DNA from: an uncultured virus (IMG/VR IMGVR_UViG_3300007523_000006)
Taxonomy: Duplodnaviria; Heunggongvirae; Uroviricota; Caudoviricetes
Reading direction: 5' to 3' (one strand)
IMG/VR virus record: IMGVR_UViG_3300007523_000006
Coordinates: 62,001 to 117,344 of that record
DNA: 55,344 nucleotides
Shown: in pieces, positions 18,104 through 51,969 of the stretch
Layout of the letters: the number at the start of each line of letters is the position of its first letter
How positions within the stretch are numbered: position 1 is the stretch's first letter
Made by a program: the position numbers and the translations under genes
Notes under the pieces: model-generated
Seen by the model: only the letters and a program-made list of their open reading frames with translations
What the model was told of the DNA's origin: nothing
Database searches by the model: none

Positions 18104-18175
18104 GGATCGGTAGCTGAGATGGAGTATCGCTGGCCTGAAAAGCCGGAGACGAGGATTCGAGCGACTCCCGATCCA
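18104..18175 (+). tRNA. tRNA-Phe(GAA)-like with degenerate T arm (possible pseudo-tRNA)
   Basis: Acceptor GGATCGG/CCGATCC and anticodon arm CTGGC-CTGAAAA-GCCGG. T stem GAGGA/GACTC is imperfect. Confidence 0.6.
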
Positions 18176-20703: not shown

Positions 20704-20780
20704 GTCCAAGTAGGCAAACCTCCGGCAAAGCCGCCAGATCGAGAGTCTGGTGTTTGTGGGTTCGACTCCCACCTTGGACA
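20704..20780 (+). tRNA. tRNA-Leu(GAG) with short variable loop and C at position 33
   Basis: Acceptor GTCCAAG/CTTGGAC, CCAGA-TCGAGAG-TCTGG, GTGGG-TTCGACT-CCCAC. Confidence 0.8.
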
Positions 20781-20946: not shown

Positions 20947-21028
20947 GGCTTTGTGGTGAAATTGGCAAACGCACAGCACTCAAAATGCTGCGTCGAAAGA
21001 CTTGTGGGTTCGAGTCCCACCAAAGCCA
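20947..21028 (+). tRNA. tRNA-Leu(CAA), canonical long variable arm
   Basis: Acceptor GGCTTTG/CAAAGCC, CAGCA-CTCAAAA-TGCTG, variable arm GTC-GAAA-GAC. Confidence 0.92.
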
Positions 21029-21146
21029 CTGTTTCGATTTCTGGATCTGGCTCTTACTCGTTGTGAGTAGAAACACCTTTTTTTGGTGGGGTTATAGAAG
21101 TCAAACCTCCAACGGTGATCTCGTAAAGATCACAGGAGAAAGTAAA

Positions 21147-22319
21147 GTGAAGAAAGTCCACATCAATGTCGGAACGATTGGTCACATTGACCACGGGAAG
21201 ACGACTCTGACAGCAGCAATTCTCGCTGTTCAGTCCGAGAAGGGTTACGCAAAAAAGAAAGCATACGGCGACATCGCCAAGGGCGGCACCGTTCGTGACG
21301 TTACCAAAACGGTAACGATCACCACGTCGCACGTTGAGTATGAGACGGATACCCGTCACTATGCTCACATTGACTGCCCCGGTCACGCCGACTATGTAAA
21401 AAATATGATTACCGGGGCTGCTCAAATGGACGGCGCTGTATTGCTCGTCAATGCAGCAGACGGTCCTATGCCTCAGACGAAAGAGCATATTCTGCTCGCT
21501 CGTCAGGTGGGCGTGCCGGATATTGTAGTATTCCTCAATAAGTGCGATCTTGTCAAAGACGAAGAATTGCTGGAACTGGTCGAGATGGAAACAAGAGACT
21601 TGCTGACGAAGTATGGCTTCGACGGCGAGAAGACTCCGTTTATCCGTGGAGCAGCAAAACCTGCCTTGGATAATCCTGCTGATCCCGCAGCAAGCAAGTG
21701 TATTGTAGAATTGTTGGCGGCTCTGGATTCTTATATTCCTGACCCCAGCCGTTCTATCGACCGTCCCTTCTTGATGCCCGTCGAAGGTGTTCACAATATC
21801 GAAGGTCGTGGCTGCGTAGTCACGGGCAAGATCGAGCAAGGAACCATCACGGTCGGAACCAAAGTTGAAATCCTTGGGTTGACTGATATTCTGGAGTCAG
21901 TTGTCACCAGCGTCGAGGCTTTCAATAAGCAACTGGAATATGGAGAAGCTGGACAGAATGTCGGTTTGCTGCTGAGAGGCATCAAGGCCGATCAAGTTCA
22001 GCGTGGACAGGTTGTGGCACAACCACGAAGCATCAAGCCTCACACCAAGTTCAAGAGCGAAATTTACGTCTTGGGCAAGGATGAGGGCGGGCGTCACACC
22101 CCGATCTTCAATGGTTACAAGCCACAGTTCTTCCTCAGAACTACCAACGTCACCGGCCTTGTCCAAATGCCGGAAGGAATTGAGTTGGTCATGCCGGGCG
22201 AGAACACTTGCCTGTTTATCACCCTGGATAAGCCGATTGCTATCGAAAAAGGTAGTCACTTCGCCATTCGTGAGGGTGGTATGACAGTCGGTTCTGGCGT
22301 CGTGACGGAATTGCTGTAA
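21147..22319 (+). CDS. tuf: Elongation factor Tu, Planctomycetota-type
   Basis: [34 protein letters not shown] and EGGRHTP. GTG start after AGGAG. Effector loop [17 protein letters not shown]. Confidence 0.97.
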
Positions 22320-26739: not shown

Positions 26740-26822
26740 ACTTGATTTTATCTTTCGTGATTGTATACTCATAACTTGTGTTGAGAACCAACCAAGGCCC
26801 CAAAGGAGAGTTTACAGTGAGT

Positions 26823-27269
26823 ATGAAAATTGCGTGGACGATTGCCGGAATTGTCGGAATTTCCGCTCTGTGTGTGGGATCAATGACGTGGCACGCCTGG
26901 AGTGTCCAGAAGGAAAACCAACGACTCTCGCTGGTGAATTACATCTATGTTGCGGAGCATCGTATTCTCAAGGATGAAATCTCTGAACTTGCATCTAAGC
27001 CAACATACGATCAGGGATATAAAGACGCTCTGATCCGCATCGGCGGACCACAAGTCCCTGGTGCATACCAAGATGGCTGGGACGACGCTCAGAAGCTCTG
27101 TGGTGCGGAAAACAATTACGCAGACGGGTATCACGCTGCAATCCAACAGTTTGGATATACTAAGACTACAACAATGGCTCGTTGGTTGGTTCCCGAACCA
27201 AAAGACAAGGCTATTGCTGCGGATAAGTCCAACAAGGAAGGCATCACGCCTGCTAAATTGGAAAAGTAA
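26823..27269 (+). CDS. Membrane-anchored hypothetical protein
   Basis: N-terminal transmembrane segment and repeated YxxGY/W motifs. Confidence 0.6.
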   Translation: MKIAWTIAGIVGISALCVGSMTWHAWSVQKENQRLSLVNYIYVAEHRILKDEISELASKPTYDQGYKDALIRIGGPQVPGAYQDGWDDAQKLCGAENNYADGYHAAIQQFGYTKTTTMARWLVPEPKDKAIAADKSNKEGITPAKLEK

Positions 27270-27286: not shown

Positions 27287-27482
27287 AGCATTGGCTACAG
27301 TAAATCGGGTGATTTAGGGAAAGGTACGTCCTTTCCTTTGGGGAAACAAAGACAGCCAGGATGTTGGCCTAGAAGTAGCCAACATTCAAAGAGTAGGGTT
27401 ACACAGGGACTTCCTGTTAACGGACCCTTTTGGTGTAATAACACACTGGCCGAGCCACCCAACACTCGACACTGGCAATGCT
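27287..27482 (+). ncRNA. Stand-alone RNA mimicking the 23S rRNA GTPase-associated centre (H42-H44)
   Basis: AGACAGCCAGGATGTTGGCCTAGAAGTAGCCAACATTCAAAGAGT [38-nt insert] GTGTAATAACACACTGGCCGAG. Closed by AGCATTG/CAATGCT and followed by a terminator. Confidence 0.85.
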
Positions 27483-27492
27483 GGTGCCTGGA

Positions 27493-27535
27493 GAGCATGT
27501 CGCCGACGAAGGCTTAGGCGACATGCTCATTTTTT
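27493..27535 (+). terminator. Intrinsic terminator
   Basis: GAGCATGTCGCC-N12-GGCGACATGCTC-ATTTTTT. Confidence 0.85.
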
Positions 27536-27550
27536 GAAAAGAAAGATGAA

Positions 27551-27733
27551 ATGATAGCTTGTATTTGCGGTGGATTTTTGGAACTAGGTTACATCCTAGT
27601 GATGGCAATTATTTCTATTTCGGGAGCAATATTTGGCACCAACTGGTACAATACAGCACGATATAAAAAGTACATAAAATACAAAGACAAACACAAAGGC
27701 TGTGGTTGCGACTGTCACAAAGAAGACGAGTAG
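27551..27733 (+). CDS. Small membrane protein
   Basis: Transmembrane segment followed by a CGCDCH tail. Confidence 0.5.
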   Translation: MIACICGGFLELGYILVMAIISISGAIFGTNWYNTARYKKYIKYKDKHKGCGCDCHKEDE

Positions 27734-27736
27734 TGC

Positions 27737-27818
27737 GGCCCTGTGGTGGAATTGGAATACACATGGGACTTAAAATCCCACGCCGAAAGGATTGCGGGTT
27801 CGAGTCCCGCCAGGGCTA
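27737..27818 (+). tRNA. tRNA-Leu(TAA), canonical long variable arm
   Basis: Acceptor GGCCCTG/CAGGGCT, TGGGA-CTTAAAA-TCCCA, GCGGG-TTCGAGT-CCCGC. Confidence 0.92.
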
Positions 27819-27851
27819 CGTTTTACAAGATGCCTAAAACGTGGTAAAACT

Positions 27852-27932
27852 GGCCGAGTGGTGGAATGGCATACACGATGGTTTTAGGAACCATTGCCGC
27901 AAGGCTTGCAGGTTCAAGTCCTGTCTCGGTCA
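27852..27932 (+). tRNA. tRNA-Leu(TAG), canonical long variable arm
   Basis: Acceptor GGCCGAG/CTCGGTC, ATGGT-TTTAGGA-ACCAT, variable arm GCC-GCAA-GGC. Confidence 0.92.
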
Positions 27933-27960
27933 CTAATGAGGAATGAGGAATGAGGATACG

Positions 27961-36814: not shown

Positions 36815-37606
36815 ATGCGTGCCGAAATTGTCCACGTTACGGACCACGCTTTGTTGCGATGGAAAGAACGTGCGTCGAAAACAGGTGAAGTCAACGTAGA
36901 AGAAATCGTTCAGGCTGTAAAAGAATCCAAGGTCATCAAAAAAAACGAACCTTTGCCTTACCCGATGCCTCGTTTAGATGGATCAGTTTACAGCTTCAAT
37001 GCCGGAGTGTTGTTCATTCTCGAATCAGTAACCATTGATGAATATCGACTCGTCACAGTTATCGCCGACGAGCCGACCTATCAACGGATTGCTCGACCGC
37101 CGAAGAAACAACTTAATCCTCGAAAGAGACAGAAATACGAGGAAGTTCAAAAGGTGCAAATCGACATTCCTTGCTTTGAAAGTTTCATCGAAGAACGTCA
37201 ATGGTTGACCGACGAGAAACGAAAACTCGAAAGTGAACTGGCAACAACAGCGAAGAAATCTTCCACTCGCAAAGAAATATTGAAGGTGTGGGGCGAGATT
37301 GAAGCCCGACTCACCGAGAACAAACCTCAATATCTCGAAGAGCGGAAAAAATCAGGAGACGGATATGTTGACTATGGTTCTCTTCTTTTGCAAATTATCA
37401 GAGAGTTAAAAGAAATACGCTCTGAACAACAGGAATTACGTAACCTAATCGAAGGCTCCAATGGACAACAACCGAGATCACCGAGCAATCGGAAAAAAGC
37501 TAGACCTCTTCATGTTCAGCCCTCTATCGCCGGGTTGTCCGATCTGGCTCCCGAAGGGAGTTGTGCTTTATCAGTCTTTGCTGAACCGCATTCGTCAACT
37601 CAATGA
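36815..37606 (+). CDS. Hypothetical protein (N-terminal VTDHALLRW motif plus coiled coil)
   Basis: AAGGAG SD. The 3' end overlaps thrS by about 146 nt. Confidence 0.6.
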   Translation: MRAEIVHVTDHALLRWKERASKTGEVNVEEIVQAVKESKVIKKNEPLPYPMPRLDGSVYSFNAGVLFILESVTIDEYRLVTVIADEPTYQRIARPPKKQLNPRKRQKYEEVQKVQIDIPCFESFIEERQWLTDEKRKLESELATTAKKSSTRKEILKVWGEIEARLTENKPQYLEERKKSGDGYVDYGSLLLQIIRELKEIRSEQQELRNLIEGSNGQQPRSPSNRKKARPLHVQPSIAGLSDLAPEGSCALSVFAEPHSSTQ

Positions 37607-38684
37607 AGCCAATGGTTGCCAAGAAGTTCGGACCCCACTTATATGGAAGTCCGAACTTTATGCAACCAGCGGACACCTGGATCACTATGCAAAAAATATG
37701 TTCTTCGTCAGTGATAAGCCTGCTGGCGAGTCCCACGAAGAAGGACATGAAGATCAGTGCTTAAAACCAATGAATTGTCCTGGGCATATGGAGATATTCC
37801 GCTCGAAACAGTGGAGCTATCGAGACTTGCCTGTTCGATTCGCTGAATATGGTCCTTTACACCGCAATGAAGTTTCTGGTGCCTTGGGTGGGCTAACTCG
37901 CTGTCGTGCATTCTGCCAGGATGACGCCCACATTTTCGTTTCGCCGGACAACCTACAAAGCGAAATCAAACGAATCCTTGTCATGATCGAAAGAGTTTAC
38001 GGATGGTTTGGAATGAAGTTCCGATCCGTACTCAGCACTCGTCCTTATAACTTCATGGGCGAGAAGTTGGTTTGGGATAATGCTGAGGCGAACCTCGAAG
38101 ATGCTTTATGCGAAAATGGATTGAAGTTCGAGATTGCCCATAAAGACGGTGCGTTTTATGGTCCAAAAATAGACTTCATTGTGACTGATTCCCTTGGACG
38201 TGATTGGCAAACAGCAACAATCCAATTGGACTTCCAGTTGCCTCAAAGATTCGGTTGTACCTATACCGACAAGGACGACAAAGAGCAAACTCCAATTGTC
38301 ATTCACAGAGCAATATACGGCAGCTTTGAAAGATTCATTGGTGTATTGTTGGAACATACTGACGGGCATCTACCATTATGGTTGGCTCCTGTTGGTGTAA
38401 CCATTGCACCAATCAGCGACAAAGTTGCTGAATACGCTGATGAGATCAAAGAGGTTTTGCTTGCTCATGGAATTCGGTGTGAATGCGATCACTCGAATCG
38501 AACTCTGCAACAGAAGATTGCCATCGGGTACGATAAAAAAGTACCCTACATGGTCATCTTGGGAGAGAAAGAAAAATCCGCAAGAACCGTTACCCTCAAA
38601 CAAATGAGATCAACTGCTGTCGCACAGGAAACCTTATCTTTGGAAGTATTCCTTCCTCAGATGGTCGCACTGGCGAAAGAGTAA
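37461..38684 (+). CDS. thrS: Threonyl-tRNA synthetase lacking N-terminal TGS/editing domains
   Basis: DHRAIGK, SGHLDHY, KPMNCPGH, HRNE.SG.L.GLTR, QDDAH, GAFYGPKID, TIQLDF and IHRAIYGSFERF. Length is 407 aa. Confidence 0.95.
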   Translation: MDNNRDHRAIGKKLDLFMFSPLSPGCPIWLPKGVVLYQSLLNRIRQLNEANGCQEVRTPLIWKSELYATSGHLDHYAKNMFFVSDKPAGESHEEGHEDQCLKPMNCPGHMEIFRSKQWSYRDLPVRFAEYGPLHRNEVSGALGGLTRCRAFCQDDAHIFVSPDNLQSEIKRILVMIERVYGWFGMKFRSVLSTRPYNFMGEKLVWDNAEANLEDALCENGLKFEIAHKDGAFYGPKIDFIVTDSLGRDWQTATIQLDFQLPQRFGCTYTDKDDKEQTPIVIHRAIYGSFERFIGVLLEHTDGHLPLWLAPVGVTIAPISDKVAEYADEIKEVLLAHGIRCECDHSNRTLQQKIAIGYDKKVPYMVILGEKEKSARTVTLKQMRSTAVAQETLSLEVFLPQMVALAKE

Positions 38685-47786: not shown

Positions 47787-49661
47787 CTAGAATCCAATCG
47801 TCGCCACTCCCAAACTAACAACCTGACCATTGGAAAATAAAGTTCCGATGTCAGATAAGTAGCCAACGGAAAAGTTATAGTCGCCTGCGTTTTTTACAAC
47901 ACTATTTGCCTCGAAAAACACATATTGAACTGCCGATCCCTCAGATGTTATGTACAACAGCGTTCCTATGCCTAAGCGATCAAGAACTCCTTGTTGTCCA
48001 ACTCCATTTCTATCTGTTCTTGAAATATCCACATTAGTCACCGAAGACTTAGTGGCATGGTTGAATCTAATTTCACCTGAAGCCGCTGCCATTGTTGTGC
48101 TAGTGTTAAATGTATATGGAACGACAAATCCAACCATGACGGTGCCTTGGAAGCCTTGTGTTCCCTGACTGCCTTTCGTTGCTTGATTACCCTGAAATCC
48201 TTGGTTACCCTGCGGTCCTTGATGTCCTTGACGACCTTGGCTCCCAATAAACCCTTGTAATCCTTGTGATCCCGCTAGACCCTGATTGCCTTGGCTTCCT
48301 TGGCTTCCTTGATTACCTTGCCGACCTTGGTTGCCTTGAGAGCCTTGCGACCCTTGAGGACTACTGCCCTGGTTCCCCTGGTTCCCCTGGTTTCCTTGAC
48401 GACCTTGGTTGCCTTGAGAGCCTGTGGCTCCGATAACGCCTTGGTTGCCTTGAGAGCCTTGCGACCCTTGAGGACTGCTGCCCTGGTTTCCTTGTGAACC
48501 TTGATTTCCCTGAGTTCCCTGGTTGCCTTGAAAGCCACGGTTGCCTTGATTTCCCTGAAAACCTTGGTTTCCCTGAGAATCTACTCCTTGGTTTCCTACA
48601 AAACCTTGATTGCCTTGGTTGCCCTGATTGCCAATGTTACCCGCACTACCAACTGCTCCCTGCAATCCTGTCGGGCCATTGATCCATTCGAGTTGGGTAG
48701 TATCGGAATTCGTCTGCATATAGATATCGCCGCTATCGACACAAGCATAAACATTACCGTTTGCAGTGGCAGTCATACCAATCCAATTTCTCGAAGTTTG
48801 GCTTAGTGCAACGAAGTTCCCTGCTCCATTTGTCTGCATATAGATATCGCCAACCCAAACAGCAGCGTAAACATTGCCGTTTGGAGCGGTAGTCATGCCG
48901 TCCCAACCTCTAGTAGTCTGGCTTAGCGTAACGAAGCTACCTACTCCACCAGTCTGCATATAAATATCGCCGTTAAAGACACAAGCATAAACATTACCGT
49001 TTGAAGCGGTAGTCATGGCATACCAATTTCTAGTAGTCTGGCTTAGTGCAACGAAGTTCCCTGCTCCACCAGTCTGCATAAAAATATCACCGCCCCAGAC
49101 ACAAGCATAAACATTACCGTTTGGAGCCGTAGTCATGCCGAACCAAGCTCTCGCAGTCTGGCTTAGAGCAACGAAGTTCCCTACTCCGCCAGTCTGCATA
49201 TAGATATCGCCGTTGTTGACACCAGCATAAACATTGCCGTTTGGAGCGGCAGTCAGAACAGTCCACTGCCTAGTAGTCTGGCTTAGCGTAACGAAGTTGC
49301 CTGCTCCACCAGTCTGCATAAAGATATCGTCATTATAGACGCAAGCATAAACATTACCGTTTGGAGCGGTAGTCATGCCATACCACCGCCTAGTAGTCTG
49401 GCTTAGTCCATCGAAAACAATGCTTCCGGGATAGCCCATAACTTGGCCAGGACTACCAACTGTGTTTGCAAATTGATATTGACTCTGAACCCCTAAAGTC
49501 ACTGCTTGGAAATTGCCCATAGAGACAATATTGCCAAATCTAACAGCCACATTAGACGGACTTGGAGAATCAACACTTAGGTCCGGGTCATACCAATACT
49601 GCACCTTATATTGATTGATTAAACTGGCTTCGGAATCAAATATAGATACAGATAATGTCAT
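47787..49661 (-). CDS. Collagen-like fibre protein with six 40-aa beta-propeller-like repeats
   Basis: (G-x-Q)n tract. Six repeats of LSQTTR.W..MT.APNGNVYA.V..GDI.MQT.G.G.F at about 48700-49410. Confidence 0.8.
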   Translation of the reverse strand: MTLSVSIFDSEASLINQYKVQYWYDPDLSVDSPSPSNVAVRFGNIVSMGNFQAVTLGVQSQYQFANTVGSPGQVMGYPGSIVFDGLSQTTRRWYGMTTAPNGNVYACVYNDDIFMQTGGAGNFVTLSQTTRQWTVLTAAPNGNVYAGVNNGDIYMQTGGVGNFVALSQTARAWFGMTTAPNGNVYACVWGGDIFMQTGGAGNFVALSQTTRNWYAMTTASNGNVYACVFNGDIYMQTGGVGSFVTLSQTTRGWDGMTTAPNGNVYAAVWVGDIYMQTNGAGNFVALSQTSRNWIGMTATANGNVYACVDSGDIYMQTNSDTTQLEWINGPTGLQGAVGSAGNIGNQGNQGNQGFVGNQGVDSQGNQGFQGNQGNRGFQGNQGTQGNQGSQGNQGSSPQGSQGSQGNQGVIGATGSQGNQGRQGNQGNQGNQGSSPQGSQGSQGNQGRQGNQGSQGSQGNQGLAGSQGLQGFIGSQGRQGHQGPQGNQGFQGNQATKGSQGTQGFQGTVMVGFVVPYTFNTSTTMAAASGEIRFNHATKSSVTNVDISRTDRNGVGQQGVLDRLGIGTLLYITSEGSAVQYVFFEANSVVKNAGDYNFSVGYLSDIGTLFSNGQVVSLGVATIGF

Positions 49662-50661: not shown

Positions 50662-51969
50662 TTATGGTCCGCACCATTCGCCTTGGTGTCCTTGGTAGCC
50701 CTTATCGCCCTGGAAGCCTTGGTAACCTTGGTAGCCCTGATGACCTTGGTATCCAATAATTGCGACACCTAATCCAATATTGGCCGAGTTTGAAAACAAC
50801 GAGCCTCCATTTGATAGGTATCCAACAGAAAAGTTATATTCTGTTGCGTTTTTCGTAACACTATTCGCCTGGAAAAAAGCGTGCTGCGTTGCAGTGATTT
50901 CAGAAGAAAATCTCATTAAAGTCCCAGACGCCATTCTATCGAGAATAGATTGATGACCAATTCCATTGCGGTCAGTTCTGGATACGTCGATATTAGTGAC
51001 AGCGGCTACTGTGGAATTATTGAATCGAATTTCACCTGTTGCCGATGACATCGCTGTGTTAGTGTTAAAGGTGTATGGCAAGCCAAAACCCAATCCAGAT
51101 ATACCTTGGTTGCCCTGATTTCCGGTTAACCCTTGATTGCCTTGGAATCCTTGATTGCCTTGTAATCCTTGACTGCCTTGATTCCCCTGGTTGCCTTGTA
51201 ACCCTTGATTTCCGGTCAACCCTTGGTTTCCTTGATTTCCTTGATTGCCTTGGTTTCCTTGATTTCCTTGATTGCCTTGATTGCCTTGAAAACCCTGTGA
51301 ACCAGTTACACCAGCCGTGCCTTGATTGCCTTGTGAACCTTGATTTCCTTGGTTTCCTTGATTTCCTTGATTGCCTTGGTTTCCTTGATTTCCTTGATTG
51401 CCTTGATTACCCTGAAAGCCAATTGTTCCTGACGCTCCTTGATTTCCCTGAAAGCCTTGATTGCCCTGATTTCCTTGCGTTCCTTGATTTCCCTGATTTC
51501 CTTGTAAACCTTGTAAACCTTGATTACCCTGAAAGCCAACTGTTCCTGACGCTCCCTGAAAGCCTTGATTGCCCTGATCTCCTTGCGTTCCTTGATTTTT
51601 TCCTTGTAAACCTTGTGCGCCAATGCTGGTATCGACCCAAGCTAATTGACTGACGCCTTGATAACCAATGGCTTGTCCTGCGGTGCCTACAGTTGTAGGA
51701 AATTGATACTGGCTCTGTACGCCAATTGATGCTGCTTGAACATTGCCCAAAGAAATCATCGCACCAGTGCGCATCAACATATGCACTTCGGTAGTGGTTA
51801 GTTCAAGGCTGTCTTTAGCCATCACTAAGTCACTGAGAGCTTGTATAAAGCCATCAGCGTCTACTGAATCAATCTCTATGTTCTGGGGGTGAGTCGAAAC
51901 GACGGTGCCATTCTCGTCAACCACCAAGTAGGTTGCTGTTAGCACTGGTTTAGTTATTACAATTGGCAT
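50662..51969 (-). CDS. Collagen-like fibre protein, paralogue of 47787..49661
   Basis: (GNQ)n tract. Shares GVQSQYQF and PYTFNT...GEIRFN...SRTDRNG segments with the paralogue. Confidence 0.8.
   Translation of the reverse strand: MPIVITKPVLTATYLVVDENGTVVSTHPQNIEIDSVDADGFIQALSDLVMAKDSLELTTTEVHMLMRTGAMISLGNVQAASIGVQSQYQFPTTVGTAGQAIGYQGVSQLAWVDTSIGAQGLQGKNQGTQGDQGNQGFQGASGTVGFQGNQGLQGLQGNQGNQGTQGNQGNQGFQGNQGASGTIGFQGNQGNQGNQGNQGNQGNQGNQGNQGSQGNQGTAGVTGSQGFQGNQGNQGNQGNQGNQGNQGNQGLTGNQGLQGNQGNQGSQGLQGNQGFQGNQGLTGNQGNQGISGLGFGLPYTFNTNTAMSSATGEIRFNNSTVAAVTNIDVSRTDRNGIGHQSILDRMASGTLMRFSSEITATQHAFFQANSVTKNATEYNFSVGYLSNGGSLFSNSANIGLGVAIIGYQGHQGYQGYQGFQGDKGYQGHQGEWCGP

What the first reader, a model, noticed from the sequence alone, without database searches (positions are those of the whole stretch)
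27287..27535. Stand-alone RNA mimic of the 23S rRNA GTPase-associated centre with a co-varied base triple
Seen: 27355-27394 plus 27433-27450 align with E. coli 23S nt 1051-1108. About 48 of 58 positions are identical by manual alignment to the remembered sequence. The flanking AGACA and CGAG of the H42 kink-turn region are also present. The A1067 (27371) and A1095 (27437) equivalents are kept. Positions 1072/1092/1099 are U/U/A (27376, 27434, 27441) instead of C/C/G. A 38-nt hairpin is inserted before H44. Two extra 5' hairpins and a closing stem (AGCATTG/CAATGCT) form a discrete unit of about 195 nt with its own terminator. No other rRNA sequence is nearby. Established: this domain binds uL11 and uL10-bL12, contacts EF-Tu, EF-G and RelA, and binds thiostrepton. 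The 1072-(1092-1099) triple is known to co-vary between C-CG and U-UA. Inference: the concerted change implies selection on the 3D fold rather than decay of a captured fragment. It may be a decoy for stalk proteins, stringent-response factors or ribotoxins, or a scaffold for the phage EF-Tu.
Basis: partly seen in the sequence, partly recalled or inferred. Interest (0 to 1): 0.9.

Follow-up and report, generated by a model that had tools for sequence, protein, structure and literature searches.

The report
Phage RNA copying ribosome's GTPase-associated centre
A large uncultured freshwater phage encodes, next to its tRNA genes and downstream of its own EF-Tu gene, a small non-coding RNA that rebuilds the piece of 23S ribosomal RNA which binds protein uL11 and meets the translation GTPases; it belongs to a big phage RNA family that I could not find described, and its purpose is still open.

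Summary
Window 27355-27394 plus 27433-27450 matches E. coli K-12 23S nt 1051-1108 at 48 of 58 positions. Rfam's bacterial LSU model aligns 27341-27460 (32.9 bits, E 2.4e-8), and no other rRNA is in the window.

It is neither a relic nor a chimera. All members share derived traits that 30 real 23S genes lack:
- a variable insert (18-369 nt) between nt 1090 and 1091
- a UUUG linker
- A at 1101

Across the family, H42, H43 and the 1082-1086 pair co-vary. The 1072/1092/1099 triple is C/C/G in 84, U/U/A in 14 and mixed in 3 of 101 cores. The window is U/U/A and its nearest relatives are C/C/G.

The factor-contacting loop bases are looser than in real rRNA. This favours a fold-reading partner, most likely host uL11.

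The window's clade also keeps the H42 kink-turn region. It lies 4-6 kb downstream of a phage EF-Tu gene in 5 of 5 such records, against 0 of 6 short-form carriers.

Function, binding and expression are untested. Rfam and seven literature searches found no description.

The parts
27287..27535 (+). Whole candidate RNA unit. It runs from just after the stop of ORF 26778-27269 to the T-run of its own terminator. It is intergenic.
   Evidence: Indels of 20, 7 and 5 nt among close relatives rule out coding.
27305..27311 (+). 5' strand of the conserved outer helix (pairs with 27463-27469).
   Evidence: 7 pairs are kept in 4 of 4 clade members, with one A-U/G-U change.
27317..27336 (+). 5' hairpin specific to this clade.
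   Evidence: two pairs change on both sides (G-C to A-U).
27338..27354 (+). H42-like distal stem (27338-27342, pairs with 27458-27462) and the 5' side of the kink-turn-type internal loop, including AGACA (27350-27354).
   Evidence: (the loop letters match the LSU consensus). Only 8 of 101 family cores keep this signature.
27355..27359 (+). H42 proximal stem, 5' strand (= 23S 1051-1055). It pairs with 27446-27450 (= 1104-1108).
   Evidence: these pairs show all four Watson-Crick types across the family.
27361..27385 (+). H43 equivalent (1057-1081). The loop is 27369-27377, with A1067 = 27371 and U1072 = 27376.
27386..27394 (+). The 1082-1086 turn and the H44 5' strand (G1087-U1090).
   Evidence: 1082-1086 is U-A in 50, C-G in 25 and A-U in 17 of 101.
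27395..27432 (+). Family-specific insert inside H44: a 34-nt hairpin (27395-27428) plus a UUUG linker (27429-27432).
   Evidence: The insert is 18-369 nt in the family. The linker is TTTG in 101 of 101 cores, partly forced by the search pattern. In the H43-anchored set it is T71/T71/T68/G63 of 72.
27433..27445 (+). H44 tip and 3' strand (1091-1103). U1092 = 27434, A1095 = 27437, A1099 = 27441, and A at 1101 = 27443.
27446..27462 (+). H42 3' strand (1104-1108), the CGAG side of the kink-turn-type loop (27451-27454), and the distal stem 27458-27462.
27463..27469 (+). 3' strand of the conserved outer helix.
27470..27486 (+). 3' hairpin.
27493..27535 (+). Intrinsic terminator: a 12-bp stem (27493-27504 / 27517-27528) followed by a T-run (27530-27535).
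   Evidence: (two compensatory pairs). It is not listed because of the loop-length limit.
20985..22319 (+). Phage EF-Tu gene, same strand, about 5 kb upstream (context).
   Evidence: GTP_EFTU E 2e-56, D2, D3. Synteny.
27737..27933 (+). Two tRNA-Leu genes directly downstream (context).

Best explanation
The element is a stand-alone, terminator-ended RNA gene of a large phage. It belongs to a large phage RNA family whose two conserved halves fold into a self-closed copy of the GTPase-associated centre (GAC) of 23S rRNA: the top of H42, H43, H44 and their tertiary contacts. A variable stem-loop is spliced into the 5' strand of H44.

Shown:
- homology to the rRNA domain
- the family
- the covariation that preserves the helices, the 1082-1086 pair and the 1072-(1092-1099) triple
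- the non-rRNA genomic setting among tRNA genes

Inferred:
- The RNA works away from the ribosome as an imitation of that site and is read by something that recognises the folded domain.
- The most likely partner is host uL11, whose binding requires the tertiary fold.
- In the window's long form, which also keeps the H42 kink-turn region, the host uL10-(bL12)n stalk base may bind as well.
- The likely effect is sequestration or re-routing of free stalk proteins during infection: a sponge that alters stalk composition, or relieves uL10-(bL12)n autorepression. It is unlikely to act in catalysis or in cis regulation.
For: - Rfam LSU match at 27341-27460, E 2.4e-8. 48 of 58 positions are identical to E. 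coli 1051-1108.
148 of 168 loci were kept as members, giving 101 distinct cores.
- Covariation on 39 aligned members: 88.9% of cells are paired against 67.4% in shuffles. The covariation score is 0.542 against 0.147 (0 of 500 shuffles reach it) and 0.056-0.172 for slid partners. 14 of 21 pairs change on both sides.
- Triple 1072/1092/1099: C/C/G 84, U/U/A 14, C/C/A 2 and U/U/G 1 of 101. The 1072-1099 pair is C-G in 32, U-A in 5 and other in 2 of 39. The window is U/U/A; L122, L123 and L153 are C/C/G.
- The non-canonical 1060/1078 pair is kept as U.U or U.C in 94 of 101. U1060, A1077 and G1071 are invariant in 101 of 101.
- Loop bases that are invariant in 29 of 29 distinct real GACs vary in the family: A1067 85 of 101, G1068 77, A1070 75, and A1096 54 of 72. 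PMC6239185 (passages read) states that L11 binding requires the tertiary fold. [quoted passage not shown]
- Carriers encode no uL11 (0 of 5 records) and no uL10 (0 of 5), so any such partner must be the host's.
- Shared derived traits point to one origin, not repeated capture from hosts: the insert at 1090/1091, the UUUG linker and A1101, against U1101 in 29 of 29 real GACs.
- Stable-RNA setting: 44 of 100 family loci hold a tRNA gene within about 0.6 kb, against 2 of 117 control loci.
Against: - No binding, structure-probing or expression data exist. The four RNA runs laid showed only real bacterial 23S and a foreign tRNA.
- Several positions were forced by my search patterns or extraction rules: 1091-1104 in the H44-anchored set, 1062-1090 in the H43-anchored set, and 1084, 1085, 1087, 1088 by a regex. 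Their invariance is not evidence.
- On a tree of the 68 remaining core columns the 1072 state changes 11 times, each mirrored at 1092. Only 2 of these lie on supported branches.
- The family model also scores real 23S GACs at 52-63 bits. The core alone therefore does not separate mimic from rRNA; only the insert, A1101 and the context do.
- A benefit to the phage of soaking up uL11 is not obvious, since the phage needs working ribosomes.
- In the H43-anchored set, 1 of 72 versions combines C1072 with U1092-A1099.
Confidence: 0.5

Rival explanations
1. Decoy for molecules that attack the GAC of host ribosomes. The free copy would soak up a toxin enzyme or a thiopeptide that targets H43/H44, keeping ribosomes working during infection.
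For: There is precedent that the GAC is a toxin target. Tre23 ADP-ribosylates H44 at nt 1095-1098 and recognises a minimal region C1043-C1123. Thiostrepton, nosiheptide and micrococcin bind H43/H44 (PMC8661411, abstract and passages read). The H44 loop bases G1093, U1094, A1095 and A1098 are kept in 69-72 of 72 versions in the H44-unbiased set. The placement among phage tRNA genes recalls tRNA arrays thought to counter tRNA-cutting defences (recalled, no call).
Against: No anti-phage defence system that targets the GAC is known to me. 1096 and 1097, inside the Tre23 target stretch, vary (A54/G17; U43/C22/A6 of 72). A1067, which is central to thiopeptide binding (recalled), is G in 12 of 101 cores. 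The family spans many habitats and base compositions, which argues against one particular antibiotic.
Confidence: 0.15
2. Platform for translation GTPases. With bound stalk proteins, the RNA forms an off-ribosome factor-docking site that holds, activates or regulates the phage's own EF-Tu, or host EF-G, RelA or the release factors.
For: The long form that keeps the H42 kink-turn region lies 4-6 kb downstream of a phage EF-Tu gene on the same strand in 5 of 5 records examined (G000, G001, G002, G006, G007). 0 of 6 short-form carriers have EF-Tu, and 5 of those 6 are rated 98-100% complete. EF-Tu identity to the window's protein falls to 72% (G001) and 65-70% (G006), so the pairing has persisted over some divergence. 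G001 also encodes two bL12-domain proteins.
Against: The five long-form carriers are one phage lineage, so the association is essentially one evolutionary event. The sarcin-ricin loop, needed for GTPase activation (established knowledge), has no counterpart. The bulged-G-type motif in some inserts is a common module and is absent from the window's 34-nt insert. The factor-contacting bases are the relaxed ones: A1070 is G in L134 and L136 of the long-form clade.
Confidence: 0.12
3. A cis-acting regulatory leader or 3'-UTR element of the ribosomal-protein-leader type. It would sense a ribosomal protein and control a neighbouring phage gene.
For: mRNA leaders that imitate rRNA binding sites of uL10-(bL12)n and uL1 are established (recalled). 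The element starts 18 nt after the stop of ORF 26778-27269 and may be co-transcribed with it.
Against: It ends in its own strong terminator before the next ORF. Neighbouring genes differ between lineages, and no flanking protein family recurs across them. A 51%-identical homologue of the upstream ORF has no element behind it (L124). No Rfam leader family matches at E<=10. No ribosomal-protein genes are nearby.
Confidence: 0.04
4. A functionless relic of captured host 23S rRNA, or an assembly artefact.
For: The core is homologous to rRNA, and real GACs score 52-63 bits with the family model.
Against: An identical copy lies in a second contig. Diverged copies sit in the same place in related phages. 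More than 100 distinct cores carry compensatory changes. Derived traits are absent from 30 real 23S genes. The 117-kb record holds a single copy and no other rRNA.
Confidence: 0.02

Closest known systems
GTPase-associated centre of bacterial 23S rRNA (top of H42, H43, H44; E. coli nt 1051-1108; the uL11- and thiostrepton-binding fragment)
   Same: The sequence is homologous: 48 of 58 positions are identical to E. coli and up to 50 of 58 to real genes of another phylum. It has the same helices, the same non-canonical U1060.Y1078, the 1082-1086 pair and the co-varying 1072-(1092-1099) triple. The window clade also keeps the H42 internal-loop letters AGACA/CGA.
   Different: It is not part of an rRNA gene. 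It is closed on itself by its own stem and carries an insert of 18-369 nt between 1090 and 1091 with a UUUG linker. It has A instead of U at 1101, giving a U1090-A1101 pair. Bases 1067-1070 and 1096 are relaxed. It is encoded by phages among tRNA genes and has its own terminator.
Ribosomal-protein autoregulatory mRNA leaders that imitate rRNA (rplJL/L10 leader, Rfam L10_leader; L1-binding leader of the L11 operon)
   Same: An RNA outside the ribosome that imitates an rRNA protein-binding site. The L10 leader imitates the H42 kink-turn region that the window's long form keeps (recalled knowledge).
   Different: Those are cis-acting 5' leaders of cellular r-protein operons and copy only a local motif. 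This one is a terminated, stand-alone phage gene that copies the whole tertiary domain. No Rfam leader matches at E<=10, and no r-protein operon is nearby.
Phage tRNA gene arrays and other phage copies of translation parts (bS21, bL12, EF-Tu, aaRS in large phages)
   Same: The genomic neighbourhood and presumably the same theme of taking over translation. 44 of 100 family loci hold tRNA genes. The window phage encodes EF-Tu and a class II aaRS. Viral bL12 and bS21 are described in PMC6375957 (passages read).
   Different: Those are functional replacements that enter the translation cycle. A 58-nt rRNA domain cannot replace its counterpart inside a 50S subunit.
Mimic RNAs that sequester a cellular machine (6S RNA for RNA polymerase; bacterial Y RNAs with a tRNA-like domain)
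   Same: The concept is the same: a stable non-coding RNA that imitates the natural nucleic-acid ligand of a protein (recalled). Weak YrlA-like matches lie beside two family members (L147, L157; E about 1e-3).
   Different: There is no sequence or structural relation. The partner here is unproven.

Membership tests
23S rRNA GTPase-associated centre (as a homologous, fold-preserving copy) | Sequence and structure match to the LSU rRNA model over H42-H44 | tested here: met
   RF02541 model positions 1078-1159, 32.9 bits, E 2.4e-8.: 48 of 58 positions identical to E. coli 1051-1108.
23S rRNA GTPase-associated centre (as a homologous, fold-preserving copy) | H42 and H43 base pairs maintained by compensatory change | tested here: met
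   14 of 21 pairs change on both sides. The covariation score is 0.542 against 0.147 in shuffles (0 of 500) and 0.056-0.172 for slid partners.
23S rRNA GTPase-associated centre (as a homologous, fold-preserving copy) | Base triple 1072-(1092-1099) co-varying C-CG / U-UA. The rRNA rule is recalled from Conn, Gutell and Draper 1998; only the title was seen, in the reference list of PMC3378556. | tested here: met
   C/C/G 84, U/U/A 14, C/C/A 2 and U/U/G 1 of 101.: 71 of 72 C-G with C1072 and 1 exception.: 11 joint changes on the best tree, 2 on supported branches.
23S rRNA GTPase-associated centre (as a homologous, fold-preserving copy) | Binds uL11 (and thiostrepton) in a Mg2+-dependent tertiary fold | not testable with these tools
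   No RNA-protein modelling or experiment is available. This is inferred only from the preserved fold determinants.
Ribosomal RNA gene (true 23S rRNA or a fragment of an rrn operon) | Embedded in a full-length LSU rRNA, with contiguous H44 | tested here: not met
   no rRNA at gathering score in 55 kb.: the match is limited to model positions 1078-1159, with 49 nt where the model has 11.: 30 of 30 real genes have no insert.
Ribosomal-protein leader (e.g. Rfam L10_leader) | Match to a leader model and position upstream of an r-protein operon | tested here: not met
   no leader family at E<=10.: no uL10 or uL11 genes. A terminator follows the element.
Phage GAC-mimic RNA family (unnamed; defined here and in earlier notes of this scan) | Self-closed H42-type stem around H43 and H44 | tested here: met
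   The window pairs 27355-27359 with 27446-27450.
Phage GAC-mimic RNA family (unnamed; defined here and in earlier notes of this scan) | Insert between 1090 and 1091 followed by a UUUG linker, and A at 1101 | tested here: met
   The window has 27395-27432 and A at 27443. The family shows this in 101 of 101 cores (partly pattern-forced). In the H43-anchored set A1101 is found in 70 of 72. Real 23S has U1101 in 29 of 29.
Phage GAC-mimic RNA family (unnamed; defined here and in earlier notes of this scan) | Encoded in phage DNA, typically beside tRNA genes | tested here: met
   The genome-contig scan found 1 member, in a MAG contig beside tRNAs, and 1 chance hit.
Group I intron, homing element, or other known large phage RNAs (GOLLD, ROOL, tmRNA, Y RNA) | Match to the Rfam model | tested here: not met
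   Only tRNA, LSU, two sub-threshold YrlA hits and one sub-threshold tmRNA hit appear, all beside the elements and not on them.

The most novel reading that the evidence does not exclude
The phage assembles an extraribosomal 'stalk-base particle' from its own RNA and host uL11 plus uL10-(bL12)n. It would use this as a second, phage-controlled docking site for translation GTPases. In the window's lineage that means its own EF-Tu, whose gene has stayed 4-6 kb upstream. Alternatively it strips uL11 from the ribosome pool to blunt RelA-dependent alarm signalling or RF1-dependent termination. Either way, a virus would reprogramme translation with an rRNA-domain gene rather than with proteins or tRNAs.
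Probability: 0.12. Interest if true: 0.95.

Novelty: categorically new. Interest (0 to 1): 0.85.

Why it matters
No virus is known to carry a gene for a folded ribosomal-RNA domain. Phage copies of tRNAs, ribosomal proteins and factors are known, and cellular mRNA leaders copy small rRNA motifs. A stand-alone, widely distributed phage RNA that preserves the full tertiary architecture of the uL11/GTPase-associated centre would be a new class of host-takeover molecule.

It also provides more than 100 natural variants of a classic RNA-folding model. These include intermediates of the C-CG / U-UA triple switch, and two tolerated insertion sites at 1090/1091 and 1077/1078.

The window's long form adds a testable link to a phage EF-Tu.

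If the RNA merely soaks up uL11, it still opens a direct experimental route to the question of what free stalk proteins do during infection.

Tried and rejected
- **Expression.** The look-up of sequencing runs listed 6 RNA runs holding only 4-6% of the sampled words. Four were laid. They covered only 27347-27392 and 27737-27823. Their loose ends continue as ordinary bacterial 23S and as a foreign tRNA-Leu locus. So there is no evidence either way on transcription.
- **First pattern scan.** It was replaced by tighter patterns.
- **Cultured phages.** blastn of the window element (29 records) and of member L182 (18 records) found only short hits to real 23S contamination. One of these was the end of Paenibacillus phage Pd_22F, which searches showed to be genuine 23S. 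No cultured carrier was found at blastn sensitivity.
- **Host 23S.** The MAG that holds a family member (G011) has no detectable 23S. I therefore sampled 81 genomes of its phylum.
- **Recurrent protein partner.** All-against-all BLAST of flank ORFs from 199 loci found no protein family shared across lineages. The largest clusters were spurious translations of the RNA itself.
- **Suppressor-tRNA link (for the RF1 idea).** 3 of 235 neighbouring tRNAs have a CUA anticodon, so there is no enrichment. The two locus sets overlap, so the count includes duplicates.
- **PHROGs and Pfam on neighbours.** Nothing informative beside the RNA.
- **RNAalifold on the four clade members.** It mis-pairs part of the core (CCAG with the UUGG of the linker). 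I used it only for the peripheral helices.
- **The family CM.** It does not separate mimics from real GACs by score, and it under-scores members with very long inserts.
Full report
**What is at the coordinates.**
The window is the last 55 kb of a 117,344-base IMG/VR virus record that CheckV rates 24% complete. The record encodes:
- EF-Tu (20985-22319)
- a class II aminoacyl-tRNA synthetase (37461-38684)
- CTP synthase
- a ribonucleotide reductase
- a Gp23-like capsid fragment
- eight tRNA genes by Rfam, six of them also found by ARAGORN

The stretch 27287-27535 is intergenic. It lies between ORF 26778-27269 and a 60-codon ORF at 27551, and two tRNA-Leu genes follow.

I fetched E. coli K-12 rrlH.

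Rfam's bacterial LSU model aligns 27341-27460 at 32.9 bits, E 2.4e-8 for that search. This is below the family's gathering score of 50, which is why the whole-window scan shows only tRNAs. The region folds far better than shuffles (z -5.2). It is the only such element in the 117-kb record.

**It is conserved in place, so it is not a chimera.**
A second contig carries an identical copy. Searching with the upstream ORF gave four loci. The 99%, 81% and 79% relatives have the element directly downstream. The 51% relative (L124) does not.

The two diverged copies differ from the window by substitutions and by indels of 20, 7 and 5 nt, so nothing here is coding. They carry C/C/G at 1072/1092/1099 where the window has U/U/A.

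**It belongs to a large phage family.**
A pattern taken from the 3' half found 12 real copies among 16 viral loci and 24 among 30 metagenome loci. In 185,579 species genomes it found only 2 loci: one real copy on a MAG contig beside tRNAs, and one chance hit in a coding region.

A pattern from the 5' half, blind to H44, returned 111 loci. None of the 110 usable ones continues as a real 23S, and 104 of the 111 have the 3' half further downstream.

I examined 168 loci (the window plus L127-L293) and kept 148, which gave 101 distinct cores. Twenty were dropped because no H43-like half lay within reach. At least four of those (L231, L257, L264, L290) look like real members cut by short flanks. The rest are coding-region chance hits.

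Many carriers are contigs of 100-530 kb.

**Anatomy shared by all members.**
The order of parts is:
- the 5' strand of an H42-type stem
- H43
- the UAAAGAGU junction
- a variable insert
- a UUUG linker
- the H44 tip
- A at 1101
- the H42 3' strand

The insert between 1090 and 1091 measures 18-369 nt (median 131; 38 in the window). A second insertion site at 1077/1078 is used in 14 of 101 cores. One of these is a 441-nt insert with an HNH endonuclease reading frame in L158.

I sampled thirty real 23S genes from 81 genomes of one bacterial phylum, giving 29 distinct GACs. None has an insert. All have U at 1101 and all have C/C/G. These derived traits argue for a single origin of the family rather than repeated capture from hosts.

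U1090 (94 of 101) opposite A1101 would restore a Watson-Crick pair where real rRNA has A-U or U.U. This is inference, supported weakly by two U.G cases.

**The fold is under selection.**
On a MAFFT alignment of 39 members with short inserts, whose core columns align cleanly, the rRNA-derived structure gives:
- 88.9% of cells paired against 67.4% in shuffles
- a covariation score of 0.542 against 0.147, reached by 0 of 500 shuffles
- scores of 0.056-0.172 for partners slid by 1-3 columns
- 14 of 21 pairs with changes on both sides

Over all 101 cores:
- the four inner H42 pairs show every Watson-Crick type
- 1057-1081 switches between A-U (88) and C-G (10)
- 1058-1080 is U-A (51), G-C (28) or A-U (17)
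- 1064-1074 is C-G (90), A-U (7) or G-C (3)
- the 1082-1086 pair is U-A (50), C-G (25) or A-U (17)
- the rRNA's own mismatch 1060/1078 stays U.U or U.C in 94
- 1061 varies U/A/G, as it does among real rRNAs (PMC6239185, passage read)

The triple is C/C/G in 84, U/U/A in 14, C/C/A in 2 and U/U/G in 1. Position 1072, which no pattern constrained, agrees with 1092 in 101 of 101.

The rule that this triple co-varies in rRNA is recalled from Conn, Gutell and Draper 1998. I saw only its title, in a reference list.

**Caveats on the covariation.**
- On a tree of the other 68 core columns the state changes 11 times, always jointly, but only two changes lie on supported branches.
- One of 72 versions in the H43-anchored set pairs C1072 with U1092-A1099.
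- Positions 1091-1104 in one set, 1062-1090 in the other, and 1084, 1085, 1087 and 1088 throughout were fixed by my patterns. Their constancy means nothing.

**What the conservation pattern suggests about the partner.**
Bases that real GACs never vary in my sample vary in the phage family. In the real sample A1067, G1068, A1069, A1070, A1095 and A1096 are each kept in 29 of 29. In the family the counts are:
- A1067: 85 of 101 (G in 12)
- G1068: 77 of 101
- A1070: 75 of 101
- A1096: 54 of 72

PMC6239185 (passages read) says that L11 binding requires the tertiary fold. It also says that A1070 and A1095 are invariant yet make no tertiary contacts, and that A1095 contacts cofactors.

So the fold determinants are held and the factor-facing loops are loosened. 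This fits a partner that reads the folded domain, of which uL11 is the established example, better than a role in the factor cycle.

Five carrier records, three of them rated complete, encode no uL11 and no uL10. One encodes two bL12-domain proteins. A protein partner would therefore be the host's.

**What is special about this window's member.**
Only 8 of 101 cores (the window, L128, L141, L153, L144, L136, L158 and, slightly altered, L134) keep the rRNA letters of the H42 internal loop (AGACA ... CGAG) and the rRNA-type proximal stem. Elsewhere H42 is a plain stem that co-varies freely.

In this clade the RNA lies 4-6 kb downstream of a phage EF-Tu gene on the same strand in 5 of 5 records that could be examined. 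None of 6 short-form carriers has EF-Tu. The EF-Tu proteins are 96%, 96%, 72% and 65-70% identical to the window's.

This is one phage lineage, so the association counts as one event. Even so, the H42 letters have stayed fixed over that divergence while the insert and the outer helices changed. That suggests a second reader of H42 in this lineage. uL10-(bL12)n is the known binder of that region (recalled).

The window's peripheral parts are clade-specific:
- an outer helix at 27305-27311/27463-27469
- a 5' hairpin at 27317-27336
- a 3' hairpin at 27470-27486
- a terminator at 27493-27535 with two compensatory pairs

**Genomic setting of the family.**
44 of 100 family loci (about 0.6 kb each side) hold at least one tRNA gene, 102 in all. 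Among control loci from the chance hits, 2 of 117 do. In the H43-anchored set the figure is 62 of 111. All anticodon types occur. No flanking protein family recurs across lineages. The element therefore behaves like a stable-RNA gene of phage translation modules.

**Is it known?**
Rfam 15 has no family for it.

Seven full-text searches found nothing on a phage-encoded GAC copy. They covered:
- GTPase-associated center + phage + mimic
- phage-encoded + 23S rRNA + noncoding RNA + L11
- rRNA mimic + phage
- uL11 + phage + decoy
- helix 43 + helix 44 + bacteriophage + noncoding
- huge phages + rRNA + L11 + tRNA
- GTPase center + structured RNA + phage + 23S

The library lacks most subscription journals, so this is not proof.

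After I had found the family, this scan's own notebook showed eight earlier notes on the same family in other genomes, with the same reading. These are AI notes and are not independent evidence.

**Verdict.**
That the element is a fold-preserving, selected, phage-encoded copy of the GAC is well supported; I put it above 0.9.

How it works is inferred. I put 0.5 on an off-ribosome mimic read by host uL11, plus the stalk base in this long form. I put 0.15 on a decoy for GAC-targeting toxins or thiopeptides. The precedent is Tre23, which modifies nt 1095-1098 (PMC8661411, abstract and passages read). I put 0.12 on a factor platform linked to the phage EF-Tu, and little on a cis regulator or a relic.

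Noticed in passing
L158 (metagenome contig Ga0163150_10064024), oriented positions ~92-533: A family member whose H43 3' strand (site 1077/1078) is interrupted by about 441 nt. The insert holds an HNH-type endonuclease reading frame whose stop lies inside the RNA's conserved junction. This suggests that homing elements target the RNA gene.
   Followed up: partly
window 20985-22319; L409-L412: The phage EF-Tu ORF as called has about 57 extra N-terminal residues before the GTP-binding domain, though the start is uncertain. In relative G006 the EF-Tu match is split into two reading frames of 204 and 221 aa.
   Followed up: partly
G001 (532,729-b virus record): L296, L297: This huge phage carries a long-form GAC RNA and EF-Tu. 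It also encodes two proteins with a bL12 C-terminal domain, in open frames of 235 and 150 aa.
   Followed up: no
window 18104-18175 and 20704-20780: Two tRNA matches by Rfam (36.5 and 51.2 bits) that ARAGORN did not report. The second has an enlarged D-loop.
   Followed up: no
L127/L173-type members; also L160, L194, L204, L181: A sub-lineage has a rebuilt H43 loop, with the closing pair C-G changed to A-U and the loop letters altered. L194 and L204 also carry the C/C/A form of the triple and an AAAA-type H44 loop, so the two interacting loops may have been remodelled together.
   Followed up: partly
Inserts of L181, L225, L232, L234, L251, L272, L274, L284 (about 95 nt): One insert sub-family has a conserved internal loop with AGUA opposite GAA, a bulged-G/loop-E-type motif. 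Another sub-family shares an 8-mer-rich motif around GGCACCCCGUAACUGGUAAGGC, whose commonest 8-mers occur in 14 of 101 cores.
   Followed up: no
L147 24-152 and L157 1031-1142: Sub-threshold YrlA (Y RNA-like) matches of about 32 bits (E about 1e-3) lie beside two family members.
   Followed up: no
L294 (E. coli strain NIPH17_0020, one 23S copy): This annotated 23S copy lacks four bases of the H44 5' strand (AAAGCG instead of K-12's AAAGAAAGCG). It may be a real variant or an assembly error in a repeat of AAAG.
   Followed up: no
window 47787-49661 and 50662-51969 (- strand): Two large ORFs contain collagen-like triple-helix repeats. They are probably fibre or decoration proteins.
   Followed up: no
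MZ092003.1 83277-84721 (L443): The 'complete genome' record of Paenibacillus phage Pd_22F carries genuine, unannotated bacterial 23S rRNA sequence near its end. This is probably host contamination or a mis-join.
   Followed up: partly
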